Of a stretch of 64,000 nucleotides of DNA, positions 6,001 to 9,000 are shown one piece after another. Within the stretch, counting starts at the first letter, position 1, and the number at the start of each line of letters is the position of its first letter. Position numbers: made by a program. Source of the stretch: an uncultured Gammaproteobacteria bacterium (lineage in GTDB: Bacteria > Pseudomonadota > Gammaproteobacteria > CAZYIF01); NCBI GenBank assembly GCA_964646995.1, contig CAZYIF010000001.1, positions 157,528 to 221,527 on the forward strand, given 5' to 3'.

Positions 6001-9000
6001 AGTTAACTCGCTAGTCAGTTAGGGCCCTCTGGGTGTGCGTGTCATTGTCGGTTGCGTTACCTCGGGTGATTCCTGCAAGGTTTGCGTGTTATCTGTCTCG
6101 TTAGTATTGTGTTGCGCGTGAATGTCACCCCATTTACGTTCGGTTGGCTTGCCTTTCCAATCTTCCATGTTAGGCTTTTGCGGTGATTCTTTGCTGCTCG
6201 TTCCCCCTATTTTTATAGCATTTTGCCCTGATTTTTCAGTGGTTGTTTTCTCTCGGTCTATTTGAGTTGTTGCATGCGTCATGGTTTGCAGTGTCTCTTG
6301 TGATCGAACAGCTGCTATCGCGTGTGTGAGGATGGGACGTTGTTCGGCTATGATGATGGCCCATAGATTGTCTGTGTTAAGCGACTTAGTATCATCGAAA
6401 AGTGATGTAATATCCATGCTACGGGCATATGCGATGATATTCTCTCCTACACAATCTAATGCGGTCTGGCCTTGTTGATTTTTTATGTGAGTCGCTGCAC
6501 CCTGGGTGACTAGACTTTCAAATAGCGCGGGATTATCAGCGAATGCAGCGAGATGCAACGCGGTATTACCGTCTTTATCGCAGGTATTTATATCTACACC
6601 GGGCTGATTCAGCAGGGCTTCTACTCGGGCGGTATTTCCCGATTGTACCGCCGCTAAGAACTCGGCGTTTACGTTTTCTAAAGCCATGCGTGCCTCACTG
6701 AAGTACAGTCACTGAGTTTATCGGCACGGCAGCGATAATCTTGAGTGTTGCATGCATGGGTGAACAACACCCGCAGCGTATATACTGCTCGTACTTCAAG
6801 ATGCGAACTTTGATGGGTAAGTCGCGCGGTATATCCTGTTTCTAGACCTCTACAAAGTAAATTTGTGCACAGTCACCCAAGGGGAGAATCGCGAGTCTCC
6901 CTTTTGAAAACCCCATCGCGTAGAGAACACGTCAAAATGAAAAAAGCGCATTTTGACGTGTAATAGGTATAACTAAGGGTGTTGTTGGGGTTTAGGTATT
7001 ATAAATCGTTGCCTTGTATTGTTGCAGATTGGATTGTTGTGCAAACCAATCAATGGTTTCACTCAGCCCACGCGTAAATCCGGCTATGCCACCGTATTGG
7101 GGTGACCAACCGAGTAATTCATAGGCTTTAGCGTTACTGGAGTACAGTCGGTTGACTTCGCTGCCCACGGGGCGCGTCCGTTCTGCTTGGCAGATGAGAT
7201 TAATCGGTTTACCGATGAGCTCAGCAATGAGTCTGGCGGTATCCCCCACCGAAATTTCAAAAGCCGAACCAATATTAATGACTTCACCCAACACCGCGTC
7301 TTGGGTGGCTGAGGCAGCGGCGATGAAACCACGCACCGTATCGCTGACAAAGTTGAAGTCGCGGGTGGGGTGTAAGGCGCCCAAATGAATATCCGTTTGC
7401 CCGTTTAACAGTTGCGTGATGATCGTTGGAATGACTGCACGTGCGGATTGGCGCGGTCCATAGGCATTGAATGGACGTACTACGATTACCGGTGTAGCAA
7501 AGGCGTGGAAAAAAGACAGTGCCAGCTGATCGGCAGCTATTTTAGTTGCGGCGTAAGGAGACTGTGCTTGCAGTGGGTGATCTTCTGTGATCGGTACGAA
7601 CCGTGCTGAACCGTAGACCTCGCTGGTAGAGGTATGTATGATCTTTTCTACGCCTAATTCACGCGCGGCTTGCAGCACATTGAGTGTGCCGGTGATGTTG
7701 GTGTCTACGTAGGAGCTGGGAGAAAAGTAGGAATAAGGAATGGCAACTAAAGCCGCTAGGTGTAATACGATGGCGCAACCCTGCATCGCGGCTTTTATCG
7801 CATCGGCATTGCGGATATCACCGGCGAATACCGCGATGTCGTGTTTATGCGGCGAGTGTTCTAACCAACCCCACGTGCCAAATGAGTTATAGGGCACGAA
7901 TGCGTGTACATCGCATCCGCGTTGCACTAAGGCTTCGGTTAAGTGCGAGCCGATGAAACCATCGGCGCCAGTTACCAATATTTTTTTTCCTTGCAAATCC
8001 ATTGCTTCTACTCCTTGATAGCTTGTGTAACTATACCGCTCGTACTTCAAGATGCCAACTTTGATGGGTAAGTCGCGTGGTATATCCTGTTTCTAGACCT
8101 ATACAAAGTAAATTTGTGCACGGTCACCAAAGGATCGATACGCGATTCTCCCCTTTGGAAACCCCATCACGTAGAGAACACTTCAAAATGCGCTTTTTGC
8201 ATTTTGAAGTGGAATGGGTATATAACTAATCGGTATCAGGTAACGCCTAAAGTACACGGACTATATAACTTATTCATTCAGTGACATCAAGCTGGCATTG
8301 CCTCCCGCGGCAGCGGTGTTGATGCTGAGTGTGCGTTCAGTGCATAAACGCGGCAAATAATGTGGCCCGCCGGCTTTGGGTCCGGTTCCCGATAGGCCTT
8401 CACCACCAAAGGGTTGTACGCCCACTACTGCACCTATCATATTACGATTGACGTAGGTGTTGCCCACGTGTAAGCGTTGTTGAATATAATCGATGGTTTC
8501 GTTAATGCGACTGTGTATCCCCAGGGTGAGACCATAACCGGTTGCATTGATTTCTTGTAAAATCTGCGGCAAGTGTTGTTGTTGGTAGCGCACTACGTGT
8601 AAAAACGGTCCGAAAATTTCGCCGCTGAGTTGGGTAATGCTTTTAATACTGAACGCACAAGGCGCGAAGAAAGTGCCGTGTTGGGTTTGTGCTTTATCTA
8701 GCTTGACTTGGTAAATGAGTTCGCCTTGTTCTTGCATGTCGATAAAGTGGCGCGTCAGCATCGTGTGCGCTGCTTGATCGATGACGGGTCCTATGTCAGT
8801 GGCCAAACACCCGGGATCTCCCACACGTAACTCAGCCATGGCGCCGCGCAGCATATGAATGATTTTAGTGGCAATGTCTTCTTGCAAAAAGAGTACGCGT
8901 AGTGCAGAGCAACGTTGTCCTGCGCTGCCGAAAGCAGAATGTAGTACATCGGTGACAACTTGTTCGGGTAGAGCAGAGGAATCCACTAGCATGGCATTTT

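What the first reader, a model, noticed from the sequence alone, without database searches (positions are those of the whole stretch)
6776..8230. Nucleotide-sugar epimerase/dehydratase gene bracketed by two direct about 200-bp family-A repeat copies, next to an ankyrin gene
Copies A2 (6776-6975) and A3 (8032-8230) are near-identical, in the same orientation, and immediately flank the 6992-8002 gene on both sides. That is a cassette-like arrangement that could allow excision or duplication by homologous recombination, or it could reflect MITE-mediated mobilisation of a cell-surface sugar-modifying gene.
Basis: seen in the sequence. Interest (0 to 1): 0.5.

Follow-up and report, generated by a model that had tools for sequence, protein, structure and literature searches.

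The report
Two MITE copies flanking a sugar-dehydratase gene
The two ~190-bp repeats either side of this sugar-dehydratase gene are independent insertions of a very abundant miniature transposon (MITE) that litters the gaps between ordinary genes in this uncultured bacterium, so the "cassette" look is a by-product of repeat density and not evidence of a mobile gene.

Summary
Same-strand ~190-bp repeats lie at 6781-6971 and 8032-8222, around a LegB-type NAD-dependent 4,6-dehydratase gene (6992-8002, minus strand), with an ankyrin gene on one side and putA on the other. "Near-identical" is overstated: the two copies are 86% identical, share at most 22 exact bases, and each is closer (92-93%) to copies elsewhere. 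The repeat is a new Correia/RUP-like MITE: 187 nt, imperfect terminal inverted repeats (24 of 32 positions), and a TA target-site duplication shown by two reconstructed empty sites. At least 29 copies were found in about 260 kb examined, and a homologue occurs in a distantly related MAG. A sister family B with different ends shares the internal core. Other housekeeping genes (comM-like, rluD-like) are bracketed the same way. The dehydratase gene has native composition. Adjacency of two copies is expected by chance (p about 0.2-0.3). Direct orientation is the default because family A follows GC skew (17 of 19 copies). The one likely local effect is inferred: the left end of A3 forms a promoter-like site 21 bp upstream of the dehydratase start codon. 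Verdict: an ordinary feature and a new member of a known kind; the cassette reading is not supported.

The parts
6781..6971 (+). Family-A MITE copy A2: TA (6781-6782), 187-nt element TACTGC...AGGTA (6783-6969), TA (6970-6971). Lies between the ankyrin gene and the stop codon of the legB-like gene.
8032..8222 (+). Family-A MITE copy A3: TA (8032-8033), 187-nt element TACCGC...GGGTA (8034-8220), TA (8221-8222). Lies between the legB-like start codon and the putA stop codon. Carries the GGATCGATACGCG variant of the central palindrome arm.
6992..8002 (-). legB-like NAD-dependent sugar 4,6-dehydratase (336 aa). No other leg genes were found in the window. RBS AAGGAG at 8016-8011.
8030..8058 (-). 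Sigma-70-like promoter match TTGGCA-17-TATAGT (10 of 12). The -35 lies inside the left end of A3. The -10 is made of two element bases, the TA duplication and two flank bases. The site points at the legB-like gene (ATG at 8002).
   Evidence: function inferred only
6019..6687 (-). Ankyrin-repeat protein gene (222 aa), downstream neighbour on the minus strand.
8270..11428 (-). putA (bifunctional proline dehydrogenase / P5C dehydrogenase, 1052 aa), upstream neighbour on the minus strand.
3185..3375 (+). Family-A copy A1, between ctaA and ctaB. Its left flank is the arm of a B-type hairpin (..GCTGAA|TA).
38107..38295 (+). Family-A copy A4, with a diverged 5' module, between lptG and greA.
60945..61106 (+). 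A/B intermediate copy: B-type ends with the A-type palindromic core insertion.
12674..12844 (-). Family-B copy (sister MITE family: ends GTAACTATTCAGC/GCTGAATAGTTAC, shared core GGGGAGAATCCCCATCGCG). Further B copies at 26474-26641(-), 26641-26772(-), 33639-33808(+) and 49859-50028(-).

Best explanation
A2 and A3 are two separate insertions of a non-autonomous, TA-duplicating miniature inverted-repeat transposable element (here called family A: 187 nt, imperfect terminal inverted repeats of about 26-32 nt, and a chain of four hairpins). The element has colonised many intergenic gaps of this uncultured gammaproteobacterium-like genome. It is presumably moved in trans by a DDE transposase of the IS630/Tc1 type; this is inferred from the TA duplication and the palindromic A|TA|T target, and no transposase was seen. 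The legB-like gene happens to have one copy in the gap on each side. The pair is a by-product of high element density, an intergenic preference and a replichore-wide orientation bias. It is not a gene cassette. The most likely local consequence, which is inferred, is regulatory. A3 sits 31 bp upstream of the legB start codon (element body from 8034; ATG at 8002), and its left end supplies a -35/-10-like site. On the minus strand the hairpin-rich copies separate putA, legB and the ankyrin gene.
For: Shown: (a) At least 29 copies scoring over 100 bits were found in the window plus 20 metagenome loci, all intergenic. (b) Conservation starts and stops sharply at TA|TACCGC...GGGTA|TA, with TA on both sides in about 27 of 29 copies, and tandem pairs share one TA. 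(c) The ends match as an inverted repeat at 24 of 32 positions, and the two ends co-vary in the homologue from another MAG, L003. (d) There are two reconstructed empty sites: removing the element and one TA from L004 and L013 restores an intact family-B terminal hairpin. (e) A2 and A3 are 86% identical while each is 92-93% identical to distant copies, and they carry different core variants. (f) The same bracket arrangement occurs around comM-like and rluD-like genes. (g) legB has native composition. (h) Chance adjacency is p = 0.21-0.34. (i) Element orientation follows GC skew in 17 of 19 copies (p = 7e-4), so neighbouring copies are direct by default. (j) The promoter-like site lies at the A3 left end. 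The same element position gives promoter matches in 5 of 29 copies, and A3 carries a substitution, seen in no other aligned copy (GATGCCAA against the usual GATGCGAA), that improves the -35.
Against: No cognate transposase and no IS-sized repeat was found in the roughly 260 kb examined, so the IS630/Tc1 assignment rests on the TA duplication alone. The loci used for family statistics come from metagenome assembly JACCDN01. They are inferred, not proven, to be from the same organism as the window, and none overlaps it. Recombination between A2 and A3 is unlikely but not impossible. No related strain was available to test presence/absence. Promoter function is only a consensus match. A replication-linked orientation bias is unusual for a symmetric DDE element and is unexplained.
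Confidence: 0.85

Rival explanations
1. The pair of direct MITE copies forms a functional mobile or excisable unit. Either a transposase acts on the outer ends, as in a composite transposon or an integron-mobilisation-unit-like structure, or homologous recombination between the copies loops the sugar gene out or duplicates it.
For: Both copies are full length with intact outer ends and lie in direct orientation immediately next to the gene. From my own recall, not checked in the literature here, MITE pairs flanking cargo genes have been described.
Against: The copies are 86% identical with at most 22 nt of exact identity, and each is closer to other copies. The cargo has native composition. 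The same arrangement surrounds housekeeping genes. Adjacency is expected by chance. The TA duplication is uninformative for a composite. Three Logan samples carry the same legB contig, which ends in A2 and A3, and no variant was seen.
Confidence: 0.06
2. The repeats are REP/BIME-like or IS200/IS605-derived palindrome elements moved as single-stranded DNA by a HUH (Y1) transposase. That would explain why their orientation follows the replication strand.
For: Orientation follows GC skew in 17 of 19 copies, and in 4 of 4 cases where gene direction and skew disagree. The architecture is hairpin-rich, modular and mosaic, with A/B chimeras. ssDNA transposons show this kind of bias (PMC3971601).
Against: A TA duplication is demonstrated and the ends are symmetric inverted repeats with a palindromic A|TA|T target. 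IS200/IS605 and REP elements have neither. There is no 5' GTAG/CGTC tag next to a 20-40-nt palindrome. No Y1 transposase or RAYT was seen among the roughly 50 window ORFs scanned. Sister family B shows no bias. IS630 can itself show bias in some genomes (PMC3971601).
Confidence: 0.05
3. The repeats are primarily genes or sites for a structured RNA or a protein-binding element (a small RNA, a terminator/attenuator or a nucleoid-protein site) that the host has multiplied, and mobility is secondary.
For: The hairpins are maintained with compensatory changes: pair 107-135 is CG in 11 copies and AU in 7; the H2 stem is ACAAA/TTTGT in A, CCCAG/CTGGG in B and CGAAAA/TTTTCG in A1; the H4 variants pair correctly. 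The core GGGGAGAATCCCCATCGCG is conserved between families with different ends and in a MAG whose RluD is only 52% identical. Fold z-scores are -4.4 and -5.0 for A1 and A3.
Against: There is no Rfam match even at E<=1. The RNAalifold covariation term is about 0. The element occurs in both orientations relative to flanking genes. There is no consistent promoter or terminator. The transposition signatures are clear. A2 folds with z of only -2.2.
Confidence: 0.05

Closest known systems
Correia / NEMIS elements of Neisseria
   Same: They are 100-160-bp non-coding intergenic repeats in high copy, with about 24-26-bp terminal inverted repeats, TA at the termini and a TA target duplication. They have length variants caused by an internal insertion, ends that can create outward promoters, and transcripts that fold into long hairpins (PMC2229807). 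Family A matches on size class, inverted repeats, TA duplication, internal insertion variants (L008, L018b) and a promoter-like site at an end.
   Different: No sequence relationship to Correia elements was established. No IHF consensus was found in family A. Family A is a chain of four hairpins, not one long stem. Its orientation follows the replication strand. It shares its core with a second family that has different ends.
RUP (S. pneumoniae), thought to be mobilised by IS630-Spn1, and other IS630/Tc1-type MITEs
   Same: Insertion at a TA with TA duplication, short inverted repeats, about 100-200 bp, around a hundred intergenic copies, and a tendency to insert into other repeats or IS elements (PMC2229807). 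Family A inserts into the TA of family-B hairpins and next to its own ends.
   Different: For RUP a cognate IS with matching ends is known. Here none was found in about 260 kb, so the link to IS630 is inferred only.
QMITE1/QMITE2 of Coxiella burnetii
   Same: MITE families in an intracellular gammaproteobacterium. QMITE2 is about 190 bp with 23-29-bp inverted repeats and has truncated REP-like derivatives. Together the QMITEs make up about 0.9% of the genome and often abut gene ends (PMC5896051). In this window families A and B fill about 3% of the DNA and abut start and stop codons.
   Different: QMITE2 is flanked by 7-9-bp direct repeats, not TA. No sequence similarity to the QMITEs was tested directly. 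The diagnostic strings of families A and B occur in no searched paper.
MITE pairs flanking cargo genes (composite, integron-mobilisation-unit-like structures)
   Same: Two direct copies of a MITE bracket a gene.
   Different: As I recall such structures (not checked here), they have near-identical copies, foreign cargo and a target duplication around the whole unit. Here the copies are 86% identical, the cargo is native, and the TA is uninformative.
BIME/REP mosaics of enterobacteria and BOX elements of pneumococci
   Same: Modular, mosaic intergenic repeats built from reusable hairpin modules. Here the 58-nt H1 module occurs alone, A/B chimeras exist, and the core is shared.
   Different: Family A has terminal inverted repeats and a target duplication. 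It has no GTAG/CGTC tag and no RAYT was seen.

Membership tests
Bacterial MITE (non-autonomous class II element) | Small (about 100-400 bp) with no coding capacity | tested here: met
   The element is 187 nt. Only spurious ORFs of up to 75 aa overlap copies.
Bacterial MITE (non-autonomous class II element) | Terminal inverted repeats | tested here: met
   The consensus ends match at 24 of 32 positions as an inverted repeat. The ends co-vary in the L003 homologue.
Bacterial MITE (non-autonomous class II element) | Target-site duplication shown by filled versus empty sites | tested here: met
   TA lies on both sides in about 27 of 29 copies. Removing the element and one TA in L004 and L013 restores an intact B-type hairpin.
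Bacterial MITE (non-autonomous class II element) | Multiple dispersed copies | tested here: met
   At least 29 copies over 100 bits in the window plus 20 loci on 11 contigs. Logan contigs break inside the copies.
IS630/Tc1-derived MITE | TA target and TA duplication | tested here: met
   palindromic A|TA|T preference.
IS630/Tc1-derived MITE | Cognate autonomous IS whose ends match the MITE ends | tested here: inconclusive
   No transposase among the annotated window ORFs. No repeat of 300 bp or more other than a tandem array. No plasmid or phage match. Only about 260 kb of the genome was available.
Composite / MITE-pair mobilisable cassette | Two (near-)identical copies flanking the cargo | tested here: not met
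   85.9% identity, at most 22 nt exact, and different subfamily variants.
Composite / MITE-pair mobilisable cassette | Cargo of foreign origin or variable presence | tested here: not met
   GC3 z = +0.6 and native codon usage. The same arrangement is present in three Logan samples. Variable presence in relatives is not testable, because there are no close relatives.
REP/BIME (RAYT-associated) | A 20-40-nt palindrome with a 5' GTAG or CGTC tag, no TIR or TSD, and an associated RAYT gene | tested here: not met
   The element has inverted repeats and a TA duplication. The only GTAG lies 3' of the core hairpin. No Y1 transposase was seen in the window.
IS200/IS605-derived palindrome element (PATE) | Asymmetric ends with subterminal hairpins, no inverted repeats, no duplication, strand-specific insertion | tested here: not met
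   Inverted repeats and a duplication are present. Only the strand bias fits.
Known RNA family (Rfam) | Match to a curated covariance model | tested here: not met
   0 hits at gathering score over the whole window and 0 hits at E<=1 on the repeat regions.
LegB (legionaminic-acid pathway 4,6-dehydratase) | Score above the NCBIfam TIGR04180 cutoff | tested here: met
   486.9 bits against a cutoff of 475. 64-69% identity to proteins named LegB.
LegB (legionaminic-acid pathway 4,6-dehydratase) | Located in a leg gene cluster (aminotransferase, acetyltransferase, epimerase, synthase, CMP-transferase) | tested here: not met
   The neighbours are the ankyrin gene and putA. None of the roughly 50 window ORFs scanned is a leg-pathway gene; four longer ORFs were not scanned.

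The most novel reading that the evidence does not exclude
Family A may be a TA-duplicating MITE whose insertion or survival is coupled to the direction of replication (17 of 19 copies have the same strand on the G-rich side). Its conserved internal core (GGGGAGAATCCCCATCGCG plus a GTAAA-loop hairpin) is shared with a second MITE family that has unrelated ends, and with a distantly related MAG. That would suggest the core is a functional module, such as a protein-binding or RNA element, that different transposon 'wrappers' carry around, with copies such as A3 recruited as promoters.
Probability: 0.15. Interest if true: 0.5.

Novelty: new member of a known kind. Interest (0 to 1): 0.3.

Why it matters
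For this finding the result is mostly deflationary. A gene sandwiched between direct repeats in a MITE-rich genome should not be read as a mobile cassette without strain comparisons. The useful outputs are: (1) a defined new MITE family with exact ends, a consensus and a proven TA duplication, which explains why short-read assemblies of this organism fragment at nearly every such gap; (2) a sister family that shares the core, plus evidence of chimeras, which gives a small model of modular MITE evolution; (3) a testable case of a MITE end supplying a promoter to a surface-sugar gene; and (4) a replication-strand orientation bias in a TA-type MITE, which adds to the limited evidence that DDE transposition can be coupled to the replication fork (PMC3971601).

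Tried and rejected
The genome-contig scan with the family-A 5' pattern gave 0 hits, so the source species is not among the GTDB representatives. The second scan, with the family-B core, gave only L003. P0002 looked like a closer LegB relative, but it is a 478-aa duplicated or chimeric protein only 51-59% identical, sitting in a normal sugar cluster; rejected as a comparator. PutA homologues reach at most 61% identity, so synteny and strain comparison are impossible. Logan contigs for legB, the ankyrin gene and putA all end inside repeats, so they cannot show a deletion variant. In L011 a gene flanked by partial A pieces looked like a split element or a transposase. It is a response-regulator-like gene next to an A/B chimera and a solo 58-nt H1 module. 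Rfam at gathering and permissive thresholds found nothing. BLAST of the consensus against plasmids and phages found nothing. Literature searches for the accession numbers and the diagnostic sequence strings found nothing. An all-against-all BLAST for IS-sized repeats found none. There is no IHF consensus. An asymmetric target site was considered as the cause of the strand bias, but the target is essentially palindromic. An integron attC reading was considered and dropped, because the repeats lie among housekeeping genes across the window and no integrase is present.
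Full report
OBSERVATION. The sequence, the repeat finder and an nhmmer profile confirm a ~190-bp repeat on the + strand at about 6777-6977 (A2) and 8028-8228 (A3). Further copies lie at 3181-3383 (A1) and 38107-38296 (A4, diverged 5' part), and there is an intermediate copy at about 60945-61106. The ORF between A2 and A3 (6992-8002, minus strand, 336 aa) is an extended SDR sugar dehydratase (Pfam Epimerase/GDP_Man_Dehyd). It passes NCBIfam TIGR04180 'NAD-dependent 4,6-dehydratase LegB' at 486.9 bits against a cutoff of 475 and is 64-69% identical to LegB-named proteins from many phyla. Downstream on the minus strand is an ankyrin-repeat gene (6019-6687). Upstream is putA (8270-11428). 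A2 and A3 are 85.9% identical and their longest exact shared run is 22 nt.

SURROUNDINGS. The window is ordinary core chromosome: SURF1, ctaA, ctaB, SCO1, hfq, putA, mlaA, gpsA, secB, gpmI, glnA, valS, holC, pepA, lptF/G, greA, ftsJ, ftsH, folP, glmM and others. GC skew is uniformly positive, in 64 of 64 1-kb windows. No other legionaminic-acid genes, no transposase, no integrase, no tRNA and no Rfam family were found. The repeats sit in gaps between housekeeping genes (ctaA|ctaB, ank|legB, legB|putA, lptG|greA) and usually fill them.

MORE COPIES. A 22-nt pattern from the 5' module was absent from the GTDB species representatives. It matched 21 times in 20 stretches of one metagenome assembly, JACCDN01, on contigs of 29-272 kb. 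None overlaps the window. I infer, but cannot prove, that they come from the same organism or population. With the profile, at least 29 copies score above 100 bits in the window plus loci, and all are intergenic. Logan assemblies of runs SRR10036080/81 contain legB, ank...ctaB and putA on separate short contigs that each end inside A1, A2, A3 or a family-B copy. This is independent evidence that the interior of the repeat is multi-copy in the reads.

ANATOMY. An alignment with 45-nt flanks shows that conservation begins and ends abruptly: TA|TACCGCTCGTACTTCAAGATGCGA ... TCGCATTTTGAAGTGGAATGGGTA|TA. The two ends are an imperfect inverted repeat, matching at 24 of 32 positions. TA is present on both sides in about 27 of 29 copies, with A at -1 in 21 of 27 and T at +1 in 19 of 27, which is a palindromic A|TA|T target. 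Head-to-tail tandem pairs (L020 101-298/292-487; L012 3020-3190/3187-3377) share a single TA. The decisive evidence is that two copies (L004, L013) lie inside the terminal hairpin of a family-B element. Deleting the element and one TA restores ...TATTCAGCATTTTGCTGAA-TA-GTTAC..., the intact hairpin seen at many other sites. That is a filled-site/empty-site comparison. It shows the TA duplication and fixes the element at 187 nt. Internally the element is a chain of hairpins: H1 (TATACCGC...GCGGTATA, which also occurs alone as a 58-nt unit); H2 (ACAAA-GTAAA-TTTGT); a central palindrome (CCCAAGGGGAGAATCG/CGATTCTCCCCTTGGG) followed by CCCCATCGCGT; and H4 (CACTTCAAAATGC...GCATTTTGAAGTG). The copies show compensatory changes (pair 107-135 is CG in 11 and AU in 7; H4 variants GTC/GAC, TTC/GAA, TGC/GCA). 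The overall covariation signal is weak because the copies are young, with 84% mean column identity.

RELATED FAMILIES. A second family, B, has about 23 copies in the sample and 5-6 in the window. It has different ends (GTAACTATTCAGC ... GCTGAATAGTTAC) but the same core (GGGGAGAATCCCCATCGCGTAGAGAAAAC) and the same GTAAA-loop hairpin with a different stem (CCCAG/CTGGG). Chimeras and intermediates exist (L011 2455-2630, window 60945-61106). A full homologue of A with a B-type core is present in a different MAG (L003, JAZKJD01) whose RluD is only 52% identical. There the left and right ends have changed together (ACTTGAAGATGCGA / TCGCAACTTCAAGT), as expected for sites bound by one transposase.

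IS THE PAIR SPECIAL? No.
(1) Each copy has closer relatives elsewhere (A2-L007 91.6%, A3-L010 92.7%, against 85.9% for A2-A3), and the two carry different variants of the central palindrome arm. They are independent insertions, not a local duplication.
(2) legB is compositionally native: GC 0.508, GC3 z = +0.6, and a codon-usage distance (0.237) like that of neighbours of similar length.
(3) In the small sample of other loci, a comM-like Mg-chelatase gene (L016 714-2237) and an rluD-like gene (L020 515-1468) are each bracketed by same-orientation A copies.
(4) With 4-5 copies among 53 intergenic gaps, at least one adjacent pair is expected with probability 0.21-0.34.
(5) Direct orientation needs no explanation, because where the skew sign is unambiguous the element's + strand lies on the G-rich strand in 17 of 19 copies (p = 7e-4; 12 of 14 loci, p = 0.013).
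From established knowledge of RecA-dependent recombination, efficiency falls steeply below roughly 25-30 bp of perfect identity and with sequence divergence. At 86% identity and at most 22 nt of perfect match, recombination between the copies would therefore be rare.

HOW IT MOST LIKELY WORKS. Shown: family A is a mobile, non-autonomous, TA-duplicating MITE. Inferred: it is mobilised in trans by an IS630/Tc1-type DDE transposase. No such gene or IS-sized repeat is present in the roughly 260 kb available, and the consensus matches nothing in plasmid or phage records. Inferred local effect: the A3 duplication starts 29 bp and the element body 31 bp upstream of the legB ATG (8002; RBS AAGGAG at 8016-8011). 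On the minus strand the left end of A3 gives TTGGCA-17-TATAGT (10 of 12). The same element position yields promoter matches in 5 of 29 copies, depending on the flank. A3 carries a substitution seen in no other aligned copy (GATGCCAA against the usual GATGCGAA) that improves the -35. So legB may be transcribed from a MITE-borne hybrid promoter, or by read-through from putA across the hairpins. Neither was tested.

ORIENTATION BIAS. In the four tandem-gene contexts where gene direction and skew disagree (L016a, L022, A2, A3) the element follows skew. Family B shows no bias, with 8 copies agreeing and 14 disagreeing. The target site is palindromic, so it does not explain the bias. A published survey found family-specific, replication-linked orientation biases of IS elements. 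It linked several transposases to the beta sliding clamp and reported 'mixed behaviour' for IS630, with a biased example in Photobacterium profundum (PMC3971601). The bias is therefore interesting but not unprecedented, and it remains unexplained here.

COMPARISON WITH KNOWN SYSTEMS. By anatomy the element belongs with Correia/NEMIS, RUP, ERIC and the Coxiella QMITEs (PMC2229807, PMC5896051). It meets every structural criterion for a bacterial MITE (see the membership table). It fails the criteria for REP/BIME, IS200/IS605-derived elements, integron cassettes and MITE-pair composites. Its sequence strings appear in no searched paper and it matches no Rfam family. It is therefore a new family of a well-known kind.

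VERDICT. The repeats are real and well characterised, and the 'cassette' reading is not supported. Interest is modest (0.3). The points worth keeping are the newly defined MITE families, the shared core, the possible promoter donation to legB and the strand bias.

Noticed in passing
window 12674-12844(-), 26474-26641(-), 26641-26772(-), 33639-33808(+), 49859-50028(-), degenerate 47208-47354; about 17 more in loci L005-L023: A second abundant MITE-like family (B, about 170 nt) with ends GTAACTATTCAGC/GCTGAATAGTTAC. It shares the core GGGGAGAATCCCCATCGCG and a GTAAA-loop hairpin with family A. Two copies are tandem at 26474-26772. It shows no GC-skew orientation bias (8 agree, 14 disagree).
   Followed up: partly
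window plus loci L004-L023: Family-A orientation follows GC skew (17 of 19 copies, p = 7e-4) and not flanking-gene direction. This is unexplained for an element with symmetric ends and a palindromic TA target.
   Followed up: partly
window 12620-12664, 33827-33871, 38071-38115, 58817-58861: A further ~45-nt repeated module (..TGGCATCACCCCTAAAATTCATTCGCTAGCGGTATA). It ends in the same GCGGTATA motif as the H1 module and sits next to A or B copies. It may be a third family or a solo end.
   Followed up: no
L011 2455-2630, L011 3796-3853, L014 5965-6021, L008 557-804, L018 6097-6254: Mosaic derivatives: an A/B chimera joined at the palindromic core, solo 58-nt H1 modules, and two A copies that carry an extra ~55-nt hairpin-containing insert (..GGTCGCTTGCGACC..) before H4.
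   Followed up: partly
window 22770-23846(+), 24022-24849(-), 24854-26302(-): A strongly low-GC ORF (GC 0.33, GC3 z = -4.1) with a weak SIR2_2 domain match, possibly a defence gene acquired horizontally. It lies next to apaH and a MobH/TraI_2 relaxase-like ORF that scores below the NCBIfam cutoffs, perhaps an ICE remnant.
   Followed up: no
window 5747-5980(+): An hfq gene lies convergent with the ankyrin gene (NCBIfam TIGR02383: 81.6 bits, cutoff 61.7).
   Followed up: no
window 11835-12257(-), tandem repeat 12082-12207: A lysine/alanine-rich, histone-H1-like basic protein (about 140 aa from the internal ATG: MAQRKTATKRTAKK...) with a 57-nt (19-aa) internal tandem repeat and no Pfam or NCBIfam match.
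   Followed up: partly
window 1-64000: Unusually strong and uniform GC skew (+0.135, with all 64 1-kb windows positive), so the whole window lies on one replichore. Some JACCDN01 loci (L009, L013, L015, L017, L020, L021) have near-zero or mixed skew.
   Followed up: no
L003 2587-2765 and L020 101-487: In two genomes whose RluD proteins are only 52% identical, a family-A-type element lies immediately upstream of an rluD-like gene. In L003 this is the rluD-bamD gap. The element is in the opposite orientation relative to rluD in the two genomes, which suggests recurrent independent insertion.
   Followed up: partly
L018 14068-14468: A tandem array with a 39-nt period (about 93% identity between shifted copies) at the end of a metagenome locus.
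   Followed up: no
window 47189-47775: An unusually long (about 590-nt), AT-rich gap upstream of an LbtU-family siderophore porin gene. It contains a degenerate family-B copy and was not otherwise examined.
   Followed up: no
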